Virus record (IMG/VR): IMGVR_UViG_2609459844_000003
Coordinates: 1 to 6,259 of that record
Source of the DNA: a virus
Lineage: Duplodnaviria; Heunggongvirae; Uroviricota; Caudoviricetes
Length of the DNA: 6,259 nt
Reading direction: 5' to 3' (one strand)
Below are positions 1 through 6,259 of the stretch, piece after piece. Under the pieces are notes generated by a model. That model was not told the origin of the DNA. It saw nothing but the letters and a program-made list of their open reading frames with translations, and made no database searches. The position numbers were made by a program, and so were the translations under genes. The stretch's first letter is position 1. Every line of letters begins with the position of its first letter.

Positions 1-1263
<1,263 letters not shown>

Positions 1264-1560: not shown

Positions 1561-1806
1561 GTGAGAAAGTTAATCTGTCTAATTTCGTTCGTTGCAACAT
1601 GCGGATTCGGGTATCAGGCATACCAGCATCATGGACTGGCTTCTCTACTGGCTTTCTTAGTCAGCTTAGGGGCTTTTCTAACTGCTGTAGCCAACTTAAT
1701 AAGTGAGAAGAAGAAGTCATCCTCTATAAGCCAAGTGATTGGTAATAACTCTTCAGGAATACAAGTCAGTGGTAATTTAACCATTAATGAAAAGGACAAA
1801 AAATGA
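1561..1806 (+). CDS. hypothetical small protein with hydrophobic segments; possibly the N-terminal part of the downstream gene
   Basis: 81-codon ORF in AT-rich DNA, GTG start with only a weak AGAGAG Shine-Dalgarno-like element. One strongly hydrophobic segment (LASLLAFLVSLGAFLTAVANLI) and a weaker one before it. The stop overlaps the downstream ATG (ATGA at 1803..1806). The C-terminal GNNSSGIQVSGN motif recurs in the N-terminus of the next ORF. Confidence 0.4.
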   Translation: MRKLICLISFVATCGFGYQAYQHHGLASLLAFLVSLGAFLTAVANLISEKKKSSSISQVIGNNSSGIQVSGNLTINEKDKK

Positions 1807-2711
1807 GTCTTTTCGATCATAAGTCGGGTCAACATGTCGGAGATGGTTCTACCGCAATCCAAGTAACCGGTGATGCTATCATTGGTAATACTACTACTGA
1901 AGTAGTTACTATCTGTGAATTAGTAGTTCAAGCACAAATGGCTTCTTTAAAAGAGGAAGCATATAAACTTGTAAACCAACGAGCGATAGAATTTGGTAAT
2001 CAGATTGCAGCTAAACTTTCTAGTGACCTTGATCATAAATTAAAAGAGAAATTATCCGACCCTGACATTCAATATTCGATGAACCAAGCTGTAACTCAGG
2101 TGGCTCGAAAAGGATTTGATGAAAAATCGGAGTTACTTAAAGAGCTAATCGTTTCTAAAATTCAAACTGAAGAAGAAGAGGATAGTATAGTTATAGATCA
2201 CGCTCTTGAGGTGACATCTAAATTAACAACAAACGACATTAAATTTCTCTCTCTAATATATTACCTCAGAAACATAAATAAGATACGAAACGGTATTAAC
2301 ATGACAGCTCTTGCTGAAAGAAATGAAACTCACTTTGGATTAATTGGCTTTACCGTAGAGCAAAACCATTCAGCCCACAAAGAATACTATGCTCGCTATG
2401 ATATTGATTACATTAAATTCTTAGATAAAATAGAGTCTTTGAGAAAAATAAACATTGATCTCCTCAGCTTAAAAGGCGTTATCTTCACAGACAAGCAATA
2501 CGTAACAAACTATCAAGACCTACTTGGAAAAAGGACTGGAATCACCAGCTTTGAAAGCGATGAGATGTTCTTTGAAACATTTCCTGCTTTAAAGTTAACT
2601 CTAGATGCATTTGGCGTATCGACCATAAATGACTTTAATTCATATGTTTTAAATCCAATTGGCGACCTGATTGCTCAAAACTTTCTTCGGGCTCGGAACT
2701 TCCTTCAATAG
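1803..2711 (+). CDS. hypothetical protein, 302 aa, no recognisable family; AT-rich accessory cargo
   Basis: A 909-nt ORF in AT-rich sequence where chance ORFs are short. ATG at 1803 with AAAGGA Shine-Dalgarno 6 nt upstream. Protein is K/E/I/N-rich. I see no Walker A, HNH, DDE or obvious HEPN signature by eye. Confidence 0.8.
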   Translation: MSLFDHKSGQHVGDGSTAIQVTGDAIIGNTTTEVVTICELVVQAQMASLKEEAYKLVNQRAIEFGNQIAAKLSSDLDHKLKEKLSDPDIQYSMNQAVTQVARKGFDEKSELLKELIVSKIQTEEEEDSIVIDHALEVTSKLTTNDIKFLSLIYYLRNINKIRNGINMTALAERNETHFGLIGFTVEQNHSAHKEYYARYDIDYIKFLDKIESLRKINIDLLSLKGVIFTDKQYVTNYQDLLGKRTGITSFESDEMFFETFPALKLTLDAFGVSTINDFNSYVLNPIGDLIAQNFLRARNFLQ

Positions 2712-2890: not shown

Positions 2891-3151
2891 TCATTTAAAA
2901 TGATTTACAACCTTAACGTCTCTGTCCTTTAACTCCATAATTTTTCCTAGTTGCTTGCGTTCCAACTCAATTTTACTGATACCAGTCAGTTGGTTATTCG
3001 CCTTCTCAATAGTAGCCAGCAGCGGCCCGATCCAGAGAACAGCCTGGCAGTATGTCAGGGAGCTGGCGGTAATGGAGTCACCACCGACTGCGTCAGCGTT
3101 ACCGGTATCGGTGTGCATTGTACAAGCATTCACCGAATGCCTGCTGTACAT
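2891..3151 (-). CDS. hypothetical protein, 86 aa (questionable)
   Basis: ORF in a locally GC-richer patch directly after the 79-aa ORF. No convincing Shine-Dalgarno before the ATG at 3151. C-terminal part is charged and helical-looking. Could be real, a gene remnant or spurious. Confidence 0.3.
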   Translation of the reverse strand: MYSRHSVNACTMHTDTGNADAVGGDSITASSLTYCQAVLWIGPLLATIEKANNQLTGISKIELERKQLGKIMELKDRDVKVVNHFK

Positions 3152-3168
3152 TCTCGGAACTCATACTT

Positions 3169-3408
3169 TCAGACAAACTGTTTCCAGATGATTTTATTAA
3201 AAATAGCCTTTCCCACCTCTAGAACCAACGCTGATACAAACATATAACCTCCAATCTCAGTCAACATATTAGAGGTAGCCCCACTAACCACTAATCCTAA
3301 ACCCCCTAACAACAAAAGTCCGATACCAGCCCAGAAAAGACTAAAGCTATGTACAGTAATTGAATAAACCAAATCTGTTAAGGCAACCTTCAGTTGAAAC
3401 TTATTCAT
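3169..3408 (-). CDS. small hydrophobic membrane protein, 79 aa, unknown function
   Basis: ATG at 3408 with GGAG Shine-Dalgarno 8 nt upstream, 67 nt downstream of the Rz stop on the same strand. Contains long Gly/Leu-rich hydrophobic stretches (FSLFWAGIGLLLLGGLGLVVSGA and GGYMFVSALVLEVG), consistent with two transmembrane helices. Confidence 0.6.
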   Translation of the reverse strand: MNKFQLKVALTDLVYSITVHSFSLFWAGIGLLLLGGLGLVVSGATSNMLTEIGGYMFVSALVLEVGKAIFNKIIWKQFV

Positions 3409-3475: not shown

Positions 3476-3982
3476 TCATTTATTCCGATAATTGTGATCT
3501 GACTCTCTCACCGAGTCGTAAATGCGCTCACACGTCATTCCCGAGCGGTAGCGTTCGTCAGCAATTGCAGCATAACGTTTAGCTTCTTCTGCAAGGCTTC
3601 CGAGCATGTCGGCGAGCACTGCGGCATCGGCTCCGACTGTTTTGCGTCTGACGGCAACGGCAAGATCTGTGGTGTGCTTTGCTGCATCCAGGCGGGTGGC
3701 AAGTTTTGTTGCTTCGGTGCGCAACTGGCTAACAGTGGCAGACAGGCCAGCAACAGTGGCAGCGGCTTTGGCGGCTTTAGCTTGAGCATCTTTTACAGCC
3801 TCATCACGGGCAATAATGCGCCCTTGTTCAATCATGCGGGCCGCAGCCTGCGCGTTCGCTACCTGCGAAGATTCCGCGCTATCACGTTCCGCCCATTTCT
3901 TTTGCCAGCCCCAGTCGCTCCAGACGCTTCCGGCAATAAACGCACAAGCCACCAGCAGAAACACAGCAAATGCTTTACTCAC
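3476..3982 (-). CDS. Rz: phage i-spanin Rz (inner-membrane spanin subunit)
   Basis: Lies immediately after the endolysin. Preferred start is GTG at 3982, overlapping the endolysin TGA stop (GTGA) with GGGGGA 8 nt upstream. N-terminal transmembrane segment [20 protein letters not shown], then an Ala/Lys/Glu-rich coiled-coil-like periplasmic region. Contains an embedded +1-frame lipoprotein ORF. The track's alternative ATG at 4045 would overlap the endolysin by 66 nt and has a poor Shine-Dalgarno. Confidence 0.8.
3535..3789 (-). CDS. Rz1: phage o-spanin Rz1 (outer-membrane lipoprotein), wholly embedded in Rz in another frame
   Basis: Begins MLKLK, as lambda Rz1 does. Lipobox LLASC (signal peptidase II site) after a hydrophobic leader; proline-rich mature part with Cys residues. 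GAGG Shine-Dalgarno 9 nt upstream of the ATG at 3789. Confidence 0.75.
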
Positions 3983-4527
3983 TGATCTATCCCCCAACAC
4001 GCCAGCGCGCTTTCCTGGTCCCGGCGGATAACCTGACCATAACATCCGTCTTTCTGGCCTTTCGTCAGCCGACAGTCACGTCCACCGTCTTTAATCCACC
4101 AGCGAATAGCCTCACATGCTCCCTTGCGGTCACCGGCATTAATTCGTTTGTAGAAAGTTGACGGGAAACATTTTCCTGGACCGATGTTATAAGGACAAAA
4201 TGACGCGATACCCACTTTCTGAGGTTCGGTCAGAGACACCTTGATATTGCGTTCCACCCATGTCAGCGCTTTGTCGCGCTCAATGGAATTTACAATGTTG
4301 CACTGCGCTTTTGTTGCCGTCATCCCTTTGACGACACGCTTACCATCGATAACCGTCACGCCACGACATAACGTCCATACTCCGCCCGGATCCATCACCG
4401 CCACCAGCGTATTACCTTCTTTCTCTTCGATAAACTGATCGAACAGTACCGGTGCTGAAGCCCCGGCAGCCAATAGCGCCAGCATGGCGGCACTAAGTTT
4501 ATTTCTTGTTCCCGGAGACATGACCAT
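3979..4527 (-). CDS. R: phage endolysin, T4-lysozyme-like (GH24) with N-terminal SAR (signal-anchor-release) domain
   Basis: 182 aa. The C-terminal two thirds closely match lambdoid/Stx-prophage R lysozymes as I recall them ([70 protein letters not shown]...[19 protein letters not shown]). The N-terminus has a weakly hydrophobic Gly/Ala-rich segment [19 protein letters not shown] typical of SAR endolysins. GGAGG Shine-Dalgarno 9 nt upstream. Confidence 0.93.
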
Positions 4528-4768
4528 TAAGGCGGTCCTCCCGTTCTTTGCGCCGGTAATACCAGTTCACGGCACAGGTGATAACAGTGCAGGCAATACC
4601 GACGATGATTGCCCAGTCACTCAGGCTGAGACCTGCAATTTTGTCGACCAGCATCCACGAAACCTCTTTCGTTGAACTGGCGTAAGCCTTAGCAGAGATA
4701 CCACAGCCTGTAAGTGTTGTTCCTGTTCCATATGAAAGCCTGCTGGAAAGTGTGCTCATTCTGGCCAT
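4499..4768 (-). CDS. S: phage holin, pinholin-like (S21-type architecture) with dual-start motif
   Basis: 89 aa, overlapping the endolysin start. N-terminus M-A-R-M gives two in-frame starts separated by a positive residue (holin/antiholin arrangement); GGAGG sits 2 nt before Met1 and 11 nt before Met4. Gly/Thr-rich weak first hydrophobic segment, strong second transmembrane segment WAIIVGIACTVITCAVNWYY, highly charged C-terminus RRKEREDRL, resembling phage 21 S pinholin layout. Confidence 0.8.
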   Translation of the reverse strand: MARMSTLSSRLSYGTGTTLTGCGISAKAYASSTKEVSWMLVDKIAGLSLSDWAIIVGIACTVITCAVNWYYRRKEREDRLNGHVSGNKK

Positions 4769-4939: not shown

Positions 4940-5176
4940 ATGAAGGTTTCAAAAAAAGAGTTTGAAAAATTAAAAACAAGAGTGTGCATAGCCGAGATAG
5001 CGCTTGCTTATACACTTACAGGACTGTCATCAAAGTACCCGGAATTGAAAACTTCAGTAGTTAAGGCACTAAATGCGGATGTAAAACTGAACGAGTGTAA
5101 TAATCCTGAAGCAGCCAAAGCCATCTCAGACCTCTCAAAACTGATTGATAGCTTTACTGTCGTTGGTCCGGAATAA
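4940..5176 (+). CDS. hypothetical small protein, 78 aa, opposite-strand moron between tRNA and holin
   Basis: Strong AAGGAG Shine-Dalgarno 5 nt upstream of the ATG. Looks lower in GC than the flanking lysis genes. Predicted soluble, helical and K/E-rich. No family recognised. Confidence 0.6.
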   Translation: MKVSKKEFEKLKTRVCIAEIALAYTLTGLSSKYPELKTSVVKALNADVKLNECNNPEAAKAISDLSKLIDSFTVVGPE

Positions 5177-5263: not shown

Positions 5264-5340
5264 TGGTGGCCCTTGCCGGACTTGAACCAGCGACCAGGCG
5301 ATTATGAGTCGCACGCTCTGACCAACTGAGCTAAAGGGCC
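5264..5340 (-). tRNA. ileZ: tRNA with anticodon CAU, most like tRNA-Ile2 (lysidine-modified) of lambdoid/Stx prophages; may be annotated tRNA-Met
   Basis: Minus strand 5'-GGCCCTTTAGCTCAGTTGGTCAGAGCGTGCGACTCATAATCGCCTGGTCGCTGGTTCAAGTCCGGCAAGGGCCACCA-3', 77 nt. Folded by hand: 7-bp acceptor stem GGCCCTT/AAGGGCC, D-arm GCTC/GAGC, anticodon loop CTCATAA (CAT), T-arm GCTGG/CCGGC with TTCAAGT loop, encoded CCA. Anticodon arm resembles E. coli ileX-type tRNA. Confidence 0.9.
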
Positions 5341-5396
5341 CTGACGCTGCGGTGCCGGACCGCTATTATTCCGGTAGATTGCGCGCTGATACACAA

Positions 5397-5421
5397 TGAA
5401 CCGCCCCGGGAATCCTGGAGA
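5397..5421 (+). repeat. IS629 left terminal inverted repeat (IRL)
   Basis: Begins with the TG dinucleotide typical of IS3-family termini, 54 nt upstream of orfA. The exact IR length cannot be set without the right end. Confidence 0.55.
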
Positions 5422-5450
5422 CTAAACTTCCTGAGAAAGAGGTAAACAGG

Positions 5451-5777
5451 ATGACTAAAAATACTCGTTTTTCCCCCGAAGTCCGTCAACGGGCAGTCCG
5501 TATGGTTCTGGAAAGTCAGAGCGAATATGACTCACAATGGGCGACAATTTGTTCCATTGCTCCAAAGATTGGCTGTACGCCGGAGACTCTGCGTGTCTGG
5601 GTTCGCCAGCATGAGCGGGATACCGGGGGCGGTGATGGAGGGCTCACCACCGCTGAACGTCAGCGTCTGAAAGAGCTGGAACGTGAAAATCGTGAACTGC
5701 GCCGCAGTAACGATATCCTTCGCCAGGCTTCCGCTTATTTTGCGAAGGCGGAGTTCGACCGCCTCTGGAAAAAGTGA
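5451..5777 (+). CDS. IS629 transposase OrfA, 108 aa
   Basis: [108 protein letters not shown] is near-identical to IS629/IS1203 OrfA from memory. GAGG Shine-Dalgarno 8 nt upstream. Confidence 0.95.
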
Positions 5778-6259
5778 TGCCACTGCTGGATAAGCTGCGT
5801 AAGCTGTACGGGGTCGGACCGGTATGCAGTGAACTACATATTGCCCCGTCAACGTATTACCACTGTCAGCAACAGCGACATCATCCGGATAAACGCAGTG
5901 CCCGTGCGCAGCGCGATGACTGGCTGAAGAAAGAGATACAGCGCGTATACGATGAAAATCACAAGGTATACGGTGTGCGTAAAGTCTGGCGTCAGTTGTT
6001 ACGGGAAGGTATCAGAGTGGCCAGATGCACTGTGGCACGTCTCATGGCGGTTATGGGACTTGCCGGTGTTCTCCGGGGTAAAAAGGTCCGTACGACCATC
6101 AGCCGGAAAGCCGTTGCCGCAGGCGACCGCGTAAACCGTCAGTTCGTGGCAGAACGACCTGACCAGCTGTGGGTGGCTGATTTTACTTACGTCAGCACAT
6201 GGCGGGGCTTCGTCTATGTGGCGTTCATCATTGATGTGTTTGCCGGATACATCGTGGGG
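5777..6259 (+). CDS. IS629 transposase OrfB (DDE domain), 5' part only; -1 frame relative to orfA
   Basis: ATG at 5777 overlaps the orfA stop (TGATG), with an AAAAAG run at 5769..5774. Translation [99 protein letters not shown]...QLWVADFTYVSTWRGFVYVAFIIDVFAGYIVG is open to the window end. Missing from the ORF track because it has no stop in the window. Confidence 0.9.
   Translation, partial: MPLLDKLRKLYGVGPVCSELHIAPSTYYHCQQQRHHPDKRSARAQRDDWLKKEIQRVYDENHKVYGVRKVWRQLLREGIRVARCTVARLMAVMGLAGVLRGKKVRTTISRKAVAAGDRVNRQFVAERPDQLWVADFTYVSTWRGFVYVAFIIDVFAGYIVG

What the first reader, a model, noticed from the sequence alone, without database searches (positions are those of the whole stretch)
1735..1915. 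Peptide repeat spans the junction of the two ORFs, and an A6 tract at the junction would fuse them with a single-base change
Seen directly: the small ORF ends ...VIGNNSSGIQVSGNLTINEKDKK and the large ORF begins MSLFDHKSGQHVGDGSTAIQVTGDAIIGNTTTEVVT. This is a recurring approximately 13-residue unit (hydrophobic-G-[DN]-x-S-[ST]-x-I-Q-V-[ST]-G-[DN]) on both sides of the junction. The junction is GAC-AAA-AAA-TGA with the ATG of the large ORF overlapping the stop; the A run is 1798..1803. Inserting one A (A6 to A7) reads GAC AAA AAA ATG AGT..., an in-frame fusion to a 383-aa protein with an N-terminal membrane anchor, repeat linker and C-terminal domain. A -1 ribosomal slip on the A tract gives the same product. 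So the pair may be one gene split by homopolymer slippage (a recent pseudogenising or phase-variable indel, or a sequencing or assembly error), or may use programmed frameshifting. Alternatively the two are genuinely translationally coupled and share a repeat.
Basis: seen in the sequence. Interest (0 to 1): 0.7.

Follow-up and report, generated by a model that had tools for sequence, protein, structure and literature searches.

The report
Two coupled genes, not one split gene
The two reading frames are separate genes of a conserved prophage-borne pair, a small membrane protein and a 302-residue cytoplasmic protein, joined by an ordinary stop/start overlap, and what is unusual is the short peptide motif both proteins carry.

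Summary
The A6 run (1798-1803), the ATGA stop/start overlap (1803-1806) and the 383-aa product of a +1A or -1 shift are all as described. A shared peptide motif flanks the junction (profile-profile E 4e-7).

The split-gene, phase-variation and frameshift readings are not supported.
- In every standalone (about 280-305 aa) homologue locus examined, from 100% down to under 30% identity, the small and large ORFs are separate.
- All three relative frames occur: ATGA overlap, TAA+2 nt, TAA+3 nt in frame, an 8-nt gap, and 14- and 35-nt overlaps.
- The A run is often broken (AAAGAATGA, TAAAAATG).
- Eight near-identical E. coli copies all have A6.
- No fused homologue of about 383 aa turned up.
- No stimulatory RNA structure follows the site (z about 0).

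A conserved AAGGA lies 6 nt before the ATG.

The pair is a two-helix membrane hairpin protein plus an LPO_1073/Vpar_1526-family protein. It sits as low-GC cargo beside the prophage lysis genes. The motif (two 10-residue units, x-Q-x-h-G-[DN]-x4, on each protein) is the best-conserved part of both proteins and is disordered in monomer models. Rare relatives fuse a transmembrane helix or an HNH domain directly to a single motif region (two or three units). I infer that the motif docks the two proteins. Function is unknown; prophage defence is likely but untested.

The parts
1561..1806 (+). Small gene, 81 aa, GTG start: a two-helix membrane hairpin protein with a cytoplasmic tail.
   Evidence: ORF. 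26 homologue clusters of 81-112 aa. dN 0.19-0.32 with dS saturated, dN/dS at most 0.18, and 0 stops in frame against 4-12 in the other frames. PHROG 27656, E 2e-8. Not called as a gene in the closest E. coli assemblies.
1564..1629 (+). Helix 1 of the small protein (residues 2-23), hydrophobic, preceded by R2 and K3.
   Evidence: AF2 helix 2-23, pLDDT 73-77. Kyte-Doolittle peak of 1.97.
1633..1701 (+). Helix 2 of the small protein (hydrophobic part, residues 25-47), followed by the EKKK linker.
   Evidence: AF2 helix 26-56. Hydropathy peak of 2.43. Basic residues on both ends imply an N-in, C-in topology (positive-inside rule; inference).
1726..1788 (+). Motif copy in the tail of the small protein (residues 56-76: ISQVIGNNSSGIQVSGNLTIN), two 10-residue units.
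   Evidence: hhalign E 4.1e-7 against the motif of the large protein. Best-conserved internal segment of the small protein, 0.85. pLDDT below 50 in the monomer model. DNA repeat copies at 1728 and 1758.
1792..1796 (+). Shine-Dalgarno-like AAGGA inside the end of the small gene, 6 nt before the ATG of the large gene.
   Evidence: Read directly. An AAGGA/AGGGA/AGGA(G) element is kept 5-8 nt upstream of the ATG in almost every relative, whatever the junction type.
1798..1803 (+). A6 run: two Lys codons (AAA AAA), the last A being the A of the ATG.
   Evidence: Not conserved: AAAGAATGA, TAAAAATG and other junctions in relatives. Identical A6 in 8 near-identical copies. A6 frequency in the window is as expected by chance.
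1803..1806 (+). ATGA start/stop overlap (ATG of the large gene, TGA of the small gene).
1803..2711 (+). Large gene, 302 aa, an LPO_1073/Vpar_1526 family protein.
   Evidence: NCBIfam NF045477, 105.3 bits against a cut-off of 45. PF28206 on all 66 homologues, which are all full length from the same Met apart from one partial entry. 1472 representative relatives. AF2 pLDDT 85.5, pTM 0.82.
1824..1886 (+). Motif copy at the N-terminus of the large protein (residues 8-28: SGQHVGDGSTAIQVTGDAIIG), two 10-residue units.
   Evidence: invariant Q10, G13, S16, Q20, G28. Conservation 0.75 against 0.52 for the C-terminal half. pLDDT below 50 for residues 1-27. A recognisable form of the motif opens most of the 146 distant representatives inspected. 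DNA repeat copy at 1856.
1887..2282 (+). Conserved helical core of the large protein (residues 29-160).
   Evidence: Most distant relatives match only query positions of about 5-160. PHROG 19542 covers residues 4-171. Helices in the AF2 model.
2283..2708 (+). Variable C-terminal half of the large protein (residues 161-302).

Best explanation
**What it is.** The junction is the ordinary boundary between two separate, co-transcribed and probably translationally coupled genes of an old, conserved two-gene module.

- Gene 1 makes an 81-aa inner-membrane hairpin: two helices, with both ends in the cytoplasm. Its tail ends in a 20-residue motif, two units of x-Q-x-h-G-[DN]-x4.
- Gene 2 makes a 302-aa cytoplasmic, all-helical protein of the LPO_1073/Vpar_1526 family. 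It begins with the same motif.

**The A run.** The A6 run is incidental. It is two Lys codons that also serve as the spacer between an AAGGA ribosome-binding site and the ATG. It is not a shift site and not the scar of an indel.

**Coupling (inferred).** Ribosomes finishing gene 1 at TGA reinitiate, or are recruited by the internal AAGGA, at the overlapping ATG. This keeps the two products in step.

**Motif (inferred, about 45%).** The two motif copies are unstructured on their own. They pair as short beta strand-turn units, so the soluble protein docks on the membrane protein. This does non-covalently what a fused transmembrane helix does in the rare single-chain relative P0173.

**Function (inferred, about 50%).** The module is accessory cargo (a moron) of temperate phages, probably acting in phage exclusion or defence. 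The variable C-terminal half would be the specificity part.
For: **Two genes everywhere.** In all standalone homologue loci examined, an upstream ORF of 74-86 aa (taken from the conserved start) with hydrophobic helices and the tail motif precedes the large gene. These loci include the window, 7 further near-identical E. coli copies (L001, L002, L027-L031), and about 16 distinct more distant loci (L003-L022 and the remote L023, L025, L032, L033).

**Junction types vary.**
- ATGA overlap with A6.
- ATGA overlap with AAAGA.
- TAAAAATG: L020 and L021 share the same large protein and differ at the junction by one A-to-T change.
- TAA+2 nt.
- TAA+3 nt, in frame.
- An 8-nt gap.
- 14- and 35-nt overlaps in the +1 frame.

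All three relative frames therefore occur.

**No fused protein.**
- The 66 large-protein homologues are 300-309 aa from the same Met, apart from one partial 256-aa entry.
- The 26 small-protein homologues are 81-112 aa.
- No listed cluster member is longer than 302 aa or 96 aa respectively. Neighbouring accession numbers and locus tags show that annotators call the two genes as neighbours.

**The small ORF is under purifying selection**.

**A6 is invariant** in 8 independent near-identical copies that differ by 0-2 nt over 1151 nt.

**No frameshift apparatus.**
- RNA downstream of the site folds no better than shuffles, z -0.05 and -0.03.
- Rfam finds nothing at the junction.
- Rfam does find the ALIL frameshift pseudoknot of the IS3-family element at 5732-5848 in the same window.

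**AAGGA is conserved** before the ATG.

**The motif.**
- hhalign E 4.1e-7.
- It is the best-conserved segment of both proteins.
- It has pLDDT below 50 in both monomer models.
- A small protein's motif resembles its own partner's motif more than other partners' motifs: 45.7 against 36.7, permutation p 2e-5 over 14 pairs.
- P0173 is a transmembrane helix, one motif region and the domain in a single chain. P0169 and P0207 are an HNH-like domain, the motif and the domain.

**Context.**
- GC is 34-38% against about 52% in the flanks.
- The pair lies beside the lysis cassette, next to the terminase or portal genes where those were captured. It is on the strand opposite the phage late genes in three different prophage types.
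Against: - Coupling, membrane insertion, the protein-protein contact and any defence phenotype are all untested.
- The partner-specific similarity of the motifs is only weakly supported within the enterobacterial clade (p 0.065). Across clades it may partly reflect shared ancestry.
- The HNH-fused relative has no membrane partner nearby. The motif therefore cannot serve only to bind the small protein.
- There is no match to any PADLOC defence model and no structural relative.
- A very low level of -1 slippage on AAA AAA next to the stop codon in this particular allele cannot be excluded from sequence alone.
Confidence: 0.85

Rival explanations
1. One gene recently split by a one-base deletion in a homopolymer (a pseudogenising indel), or a sequencing or assembly error in an A7 run. 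The true product would be a 383-aa membrane-anchored protein.
For: The arithmetic works: +1 A gives an open 383-aa frame. A distant relative, P0173, has a transmembrane helix fused to the domain.
Against: The two-gene state holds in every standalone relative, down to under 30% identity, with true stop codons in three frame relations. Eight independent assemblies all have A6. No homologue of about 383 aa was found. Both ORFs are under purifying selection with their own conserved start and stop. P0173 has one motif region, not the two that a simple fusion of this locus would give.
Confidence: 0.02
2. Programmed -1 ribosomal frameshifting, or transcriptional slippage, on the A run. A fraction of ribosomes would make a small-large fusion alongside the two separate proteins.
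For: AAA AAA followed by a stop codon allows the P-site tRNA-Lys to re-pair in the -1 frame. The large ORF is in the -1 frame. An SD-like AAGGA lies just upstream.
Against: - The 0-frame heptamer is C AAA AAA, not the canonical X XXY YYZ.
- There is no downstream hairpin or pseudoknot (z about 0) and no Rfam element. The genuine IS3-family frameshift pseudoknot in the same window is detected at 116 bits.
- The run is broken, or the frame relation differs, in many relatives that keep both genes.
- AAGGA is 1 nt from the run. From my own knowledge, the stimulatory SD in dnaX lies about 10 nt upstream of the shift site, so this spacing does not match.
- For transcriptional slippage, selection against A or T runs becomes evident at about 9 nt in many bacteria (8 in some), which is well above 6 (PMC1088944).
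Confidence: 0.05
3. Phase-variable contingency locus. The A run changes length at high frequency and switches between separate and fused forms.
For: A homopolymer lies exactly at a gene boundary where +1 fuses the ORFs.
Against: There is no length variation among 8 near-identical copies from different samples. No fused allele is present in the protein collections. The run is only 6 nt and occurs at chance frequency. It is replaced by non-homopolymer sequence in relatives.
Confidence: 0.02
4. There are two genes, but the shared motif does not dock them to each other. Instead it is a self-association element, or both copies bind the same third molecule (a host or phage component), or it is a flexible linker with conserved composition.
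For: The motif is also present in HNH-fused relatives that have no membrane partner nearby. It is present in the single-chain transmembrane fusion, where no partner is needed. In L023 one small gene is followed by two paralogous large genes, each with the motif. Partner-specific covariation within enterobacteria is weak (p 0.065).
Against: The small protein's only conserved soluble part is this motif. The two genes always travel together in the standalone form. Motif variants track between partners: for example IQAGND occurs in both proteins of L014 and L017, and IQAG in both proteins of the distant pairs.
Confidence: 0.3

Closest known systems
LPO_1073/Vpar_1526 protein family (NCBIfam NF045477; Pfam PF28206)
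   Same: The large ORF scores 105 bits against a cut-off of 45. All 66 homologues carry PF28206. The identical protein is already deposited from E. coli (P0001).
   Different: The family has a name but no described function. I found no paper on it: one incidental mention of the locus tag Vpar_1526 in a Veillonella proteome table, and none for LPO_1073 or PF28206. The NCBIfam model starts at residue 28, so it omits the N-terminal motif. Nothing I could search mentions the obligatory small membrane partner.
Translationally coupled gene pairs with a 4-nt ATGA stop/start overlap (for example neighbouring trp operon genes in E. coli; own knowledge)
   Same: Same strand, ATGA overlap, and a ribosome-binding site buried in the end of the upstream gene at the usual distance. 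The adjacency is conserved.
   Different: Nothing unusual at the nucleotide level. The unusual part is that the two products carry the same peptide motif on either side of the boundary.
Programmed -1 frameshift sites of dnaX and IS3-family transposases (A AAA AAG, with stimulators)
   Same: An A-rich run at the end of an upstream ORF, with the downstream ORF in the -1 frame.
   Different: No canonical heptamer, no downstream structure and no conservation. A real example sits in the same window for comparison: the IS3-family orfA ends at 5777 with AAAAAG at 5769-5774, and the ALIL pseudoknot lies at 5732-5848.
Two-gene prophage exclusion modules with a membrane component, such as lambda RexA/RexB (own knowledge; functional analogy only)
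   Same: Prophage-borne, transcribed independently of the late genes, and made of one membrane protein and one cytoplasmic protein.
   Different: No sequence or fold similarity was detected to any known defence protein (PADLOC; PDB and BFVD). The phenotype is untested.
Homopolymer phase-variable (contingency) genes
   Same: A mononucleotide run whose length sets the reading frame.
   Different: The run is short and invariant among close copies, and it is replaced in relatives.

Membership tests
LPO_1073/Vpar_1526 family (NF045477 / PF28206) | Whole-protein HMM score above the curated cut-off. | tested here: met
   105.3 bits against a cut-off of 45, residues 28-295 on model positions 1-243 of 257. 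PF28206 is precomputed on the identical protein P0001 and on all 66 homologues.
Programmed -1 ribosomal frameshift site | Slippery heptamer X XXY YYZ in the zero frame. | tested here: not met
   The zero-frame sequence is GAC AAA AAA TGA, so the heptamer is C AAA AAA. Only the last tRNA-Lys can re-pair perfectly.
Programmed -1 ribosomal frameshift site | Stimulatory RNA structure a few nt downstream (hairpin or pseudoknot). | tested here: not met
   The MFE of 1804-1900 is -20.8 against a shuffle mean of -20.65 (z -0.05). For 1760-1850, z is -0.03. There is no Rfam hit here, while the ALIL pseudoknot of the neighbouring IS is found.
Programmed -1 ribosomal frameshift site | Shift site and frame relation conserved among homologues. 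| tested here: not met
   The run is broken in L005-L009, L011, L015, L016 and L020. The frame relation is 0 in L003 and L018, and +1 in L023 and L033.
Programmed -1 ribosomal frameshift site | A trans-frame fusion product is made. | not testable with these tools
   Needs a Western blot, mass spectrometry or a reporter assay.
Transcriptional slippage site | An A or T run long enough for RNA polymerase slippage (about 8-9 or more). | tested here: not met
   The run is 6 nt. The threshold at which selection is evident is about 9 nt in many genomes and 8 in some (PMC1088944).
Phase-variable homopolymer (contingency) locus | Tract length differs among closely related isolates, giving both ORF states. 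| tested here: not met
   All 8 near-identical copies have A6. No fused allele is present among the homologues or cluster members.
Split gene or pseudogene (recent indel) | Orthologues are a single intact ORF spanning both parts. | tested here: not met
   All standalone homologue loci examined have two ORFs with their own stops and starts. The only single-chain relative, P0173, is remote and has one motif region.
Translationally coupled overlapping gene pair | Same strand, stop/start overlap or a very short gap, and an RBS inside the upstream gene. | tested here: met
   ATGA at 1803-1806 and AAGGA at 1792-1796. Both features recur in relatives.
Translationally coupled overlapping gene pair | Translation of the downstream gene depends on translation of the upstream gene. 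| not testable with these tools
   Needs a premature stop codon in the small gene together with a reporter on the large gene.
Known anti-phage defence systems (PADLOC-DB v2) | A match to a model of a described defence protein. | tested here: not met
   0 families for either protein at E up to 1.

The most novel reading that the evidence does not exclude
The 2 x 10-residue motif is a portable 'handshake'. It lets a tiny membrane hairpin protein capture the N-terminus of a Vpar_1526-family protein by forming a shared beta structure. It replaces, non-covalently, the N-terminal module that other family members carry in the same chain (a transmembrane helix in P0173, an HNH nuclease in P0169 and P0207). 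On this reading the pair is an uncharacterised, widespread family (1472 representative clusters) of membrane-tethered phage-exclusion modules carried as prophage cargo.
Probability: 0.3. Interest if true: 0.55.

Novelty: new member of a known kind. Interest (0 to 1): 0.3.

Why it matters
**For annotation.** The boundary should be left as two genes, not 'repaired' into one or flagged as a pseudogene. The 81-aa gene is missing from the gene calls of the closest E. coli assemblies and should be added.

**For biology.**
- The result defines a conserved two-gene module for a family that has a name (LPO_1073/Vpar_1526) but no known function.
- It gives a concrete, cheap hypothesis to test: a motif-to-motif contact that tethers the soluble protein to the membrane.
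- The module sits where temperate phages keep host-benefit or defence cargo. The family's alternative N-terminal modules (transmembrane helix, HNH) are typical of conflict systems. A phage-resistance assay is therefore the obvious first experiment.

Tried and rejected
- **DNA searches.** I searched the pair (1440-2760) against complete E. coli genomes, phage records and plasmids. None matched. The closest copies are all in draft assemblies, which I reached through the protein index instead.
- **Family libraries.** The held copy of Pfam has no PF28206 model, and only sub-threshold noise was returned. PADLOC returned nothing. PHROGs gave only 'unknown function' families.
- **Genome-collection scan.** The scan of species-representative genomes returned a single locus. 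The viral contig scan was more useful, with 13 loci.
- **Modelling the pair together.** The proposed motif-motif contact is therefore unmodelled.
- **Lipoprotein signal.** I considered whether the N-terminus of the small protein is a lipoprotein signal (…VATC…). I rejected this because the Cys is not conserved.
- **Recent gene conversion between the motif copies.** I rejected this. By my own codon-by-codon reading the DNA identity is about 56%, no more than the peptide similarity implies, and only short 19-nt imperfect repeats are found.
- **Literature.** The Gifsy prophage defence paper that a search turned up concerns an unrelated ATPase protein.
Full report
**1. The observation**

- The small ORF runs 1561-1806 (GTG start, 81 aa) and ends EKDKK-TGA.
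- The large ORF runs 1803-2711 (302 aa).
- Its ATG (1803-1805) overlaps the TGA (1804-1806).
- The A run is 1798-1803.
- Adding one A gives a 383-aa open frame.
- The large ORF is in the -1 frame relative to the small one.

An A6 is not remarkable here. There are 7 matches in the window against 7.8 expected from shuffles.

The peptide similarity across the junction is real, but its unit is 10 residues rather than about 13. The unit is x-Q-x-h-G-[DN]-x4, and it occurs twice in tandem on each side.
- Small protein: SQVIGNNSSG and IQVSGNLTIN.
- Large protein: GQHVGDGSTA and IQVTGDAIIG.

It shows at DNA level as three imperfect 19-nt copies at 1728, 1758 and 1856. On this one pair the similarity is only modestly significant (23 of 5000 shuffles). 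Between the two protein families it is clear: hhalign aligns small 56-76 with large 8-28, probability 92.7%, E 4.1e-7.

**2. What the two ORFs are**

The large ORF is a member of the LPO_1073/Vpar_1526 family.
- It scores 105 bits on NCBIfam NF045477, against a cut-off of 45.
- PF28206 is recorded on all homologues.
- An identical protein is already deposited from E. coli (P0001).
- The 66 homologue clusters, at 40-100% identity, come from Escherichia, Klebsiella, Enterobacter, Citrobacter, Leclercia, Serratia, Pantoea and others. Apart from one partial 256-aa entry they are 300-309 aa and align from the same initiator Met.
- An exhaustive profile search finds 1472 representative relatives, mostly 275-330 aa.

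The small ORF is a real gene.
- It has 26 homologue clusters of 81-112 aa.
- It matches PHROG 27656 at E 2e-8.
- It is under purifying selection: dN 0.19-0.32 with synonymous sites saturated, and dN/dS at most 0.18 where it could be computed.
- It has no in-frame stops, against 4-12 in the other frames.

The model and the hydropathy profile give two helices, residues 2-23 and 26-56, with hydrophobic cores at 3-20 and 25-47. These are followed by a Lys-rich linker and a tail (57-81) with pLDDT below 50. Basic residues at both ends suggest that both termini are cytoplasmic (inference from the positive-inside rule). That would put the tail motif in the same compartment as the large protein, which has no signal sequence.

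**3. The junction in relatives: the decisive test**

I recovered the DNA of the pair from:
- 7 further near-identical E. coli copies;
- about 16 distinct more distant loci, including four remote ones (L023, L025, L032, L033).

In every case where the large protein is a standalone protein of about 280-305 aa, a separate upstream ORF of 74-86 aa (taken from the conserved start) precedes it. That ORF has hydrophobic helices and the tail motif.

The junction itself varies:
- ATGA with A6: window, L004, L010, L012, L021.
- ATGA with the run broken (AAAGAATGA): L005-L009, L011, L015, L016.
- TAAAAATG: L020, which encodes the same large protein as L021 and differs at the junction by one A-to-T change that simply moves the stop two codons earlier.
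- TAA plus 2 nt: L014, L017, L022, L025.
- TAA plus 3 nt, with the stop in frame: L003, L018.
- An 8-nt gap: L032.
- Overlaps of 14 and 35 nt in the +1 frame: L023, L033.

All three relative frames occur. No single frameshift could be a conserved way of joining the two ORFs, and no indel scar is shared.

No protein of about 383 aa appears among the homologues of either ORF. None appears among the listed members of nine clusters, where neighbouring accession numbers and locus tags show the two genes annotated side by side.

The eight near-identical copies (the window, L001, L002, L027-L031) differ by 0-2 nt over 1151 nt, and all carry A6. This argues against both sequencing error and phase variation.

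**4. Frameshift apparatus**

The zero-frame heptamer is C AAA AAA, not a canonical X XXY YYZ.

The RNA after the site folds no better than shuffled sequence, z -0.05 and -0.03. Rfam finds nothing there.

The same scan does detect a genuine frameshift stimulator in this window. It is the ALIL pseudoknot (116 bits, 5732-5848) of the IS3-family element, whose orfA ends at 5777 just after AAAAAG. This serves as a built-in positive control.

For RNA polymerase slippage, selection against A or T runs becomes evident at about nine nucleotides in many bacteria, and eight in some (PMC1088944). Six is short.

What is conserved at the junction is an AAGGA-type ribosome-binding site 5-8 nt before the ATG (1792-1796 here). 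This explains why the last residues of the small protein (…KD-KK) are so constant (0.96). Those codons carry the ribosome-binding site and the spacer for the next gene.

The best reading is ordinary translational coupling. I cannot exclude trace -1 slippage of tRNA-Lys next to the stop codon in the A6 alleles. Nothing suggests it is used.

**5. The shared motif**

The motif is the most conserved stretch of both proteins.
- Large protein: 0.75, against 0.52 for its C-terminal half.
- Small protein: 0.85.

It is nevertheless predicted to be unstructured in each protein alone. That is the usual signature of a segment that folds on binding.

A recognisable form of it (…Q.Q….S.AIQAG.D…) opens most of the 146 distant representatives I inspected. 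The small partners of the four remote loci end with the same motif.

Motif variants track between partners.
- L014 and L017 have IQAGND in both proteins.
- The remote pairs have IQAG in both.
- Over 14 pairs, partner similarity is 45.7 against 36.7 for non-partners, permutation p 2e-5.
- Within the enterobacterial clade alone p is 0.065, and shared ancestry inflates the first figure.

Three rare architectures are informative.
- P0173 has one transmembrane helix, a basic linker, a single motif region and then the domain, all in one chain.
- P0169 and P0207 have an HNH-like domain (PF13391, weak), the motif and then the domain.
- The HNH form sits next to an integrase and has no membrane partner nearby.

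So the position N-terminal to the motif is a slot filled by different modules. In the common two-gene form, the membrane module is a separate protein that ends with its own copy of the motif.

I infer that the two copies pair as strand-turn units, alternating hydrophobic and polar residues followed by G-[DN]. This would tether the large protein to the membrane. The presence of the motif in partner-less fusions leaves room for self-association or a common third ligand.

**6. Context and likely role**

The pair is a low-GC island, 34-38% against about 52% in the flanks. It lies beside the lysis cassette. In three different prophage backbones it is on the strand opposite the phage late genes, and next to the terminase or portal genes where those were captured.
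- Lambdoid, with a holin / lysozyme / DUF2514 cassette: L001 and this window.
- A GpA-terminase phage with a GH19 endolysin: L017.
- A P22-like phage: L020.

This is classic moron placement. Three things make phage exclusion or defence the most likely function (about 50%, inferred):
- the HNH fusions and an HNH_2 neighbour in L023;
- the conserved N-terminal half paired with a variable C-terminal half;
- the mobile-element association.

No known defence model matches, and no paper describes the family.

**7. Verdict**

The junction is ordinary. The modest interest lies in the conserved motif shared by the two partners of an uncharacterised but widespread prophage module.

Noticed in passing
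window 1-1239 (- strand): An IS3-family insertion sequence (orfA at 849-1196 on the - strand) ends about 320 nt upstream of the small gene. The closest relatives of the pair (L027, L029) lack it: their similarity to the window starts at 1233. The insertion is therefore specific to this genome and might affect the pair's promoter. Rfam also reports an 'isrC' sRNA hit (150 bits) at 1042-1164 on the - strand, inside this IS.
   Followed up: partly
window ~5385-6259 (+ strand): A second, different IS3-family element. Its orfA (5451-5777) ends just after AAAAAG (5769-5774), and the ALIL frameshift pseudoknot lies at 5732-5848 (116 bits). This is a genuine programmed -1 frameshift site in the same window. 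The roughly 4.1-kb prophage segment is thus bracketed by two unrelated IS copies.
   Followed up: partly
window 5264-5340 (- strand): A tRNA gene with anticodon CAT (ARAGORN calls it Met; Rfam tRNA 67 bits), lying between the prophage segment and the right-hand IS.
   Followed up: no
window 3476-4768 (- strand): Prophage lysis cassette: holin (4499-4768), lysozyme (3979-4527) and an Rz-like DUF2514 protein (3476-4045). The Pfam assignments come from the identical genes in L001.
   Followed up: partly
window 1561-1806; L001, L002, L027-L031: The 81-aa gene (GTG start) is not among the called genes in any of the closest E. coli assemblies, and the exact protein is absent from the protein collection (best hit 94%). 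Its orthologues in Klebsiella, Serratia, Pantoea and others are annotated. This is an annotation gap.
   Followed up: yes
window 2891-3408 (- strand): Two small unannotated ORFs lie between the pair and the lysis genes: 86 aa (2891-3151) and a hydrophobic 79-aa protein (3169-3408). Both are called as genes in L001 and have no Pfam hit.
   Followed up: no
L023 1350-4778: In a remote relative, one small membrane gene is followed by two tandem Vpar_1526 paralogues (281 and 283 aa), each starting with the motif. An HNH_2-domain protein lies about 460 nt upstream of the small gene.
   Followed up: partly
P0020 (309 aa homologue): This homologue carries an extra 7-residue unit in the motif (QVTGDLTQVTGDLNIGN), so the number of units can change by tandem duplication.
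   Followed up: no
window 4940-5176 (+ strand): A 78-aa ORF of low GC on the + strand, between the holin and the tRNA. It is called as a gene in L001 and has no family hit on record.
   Followed up: no
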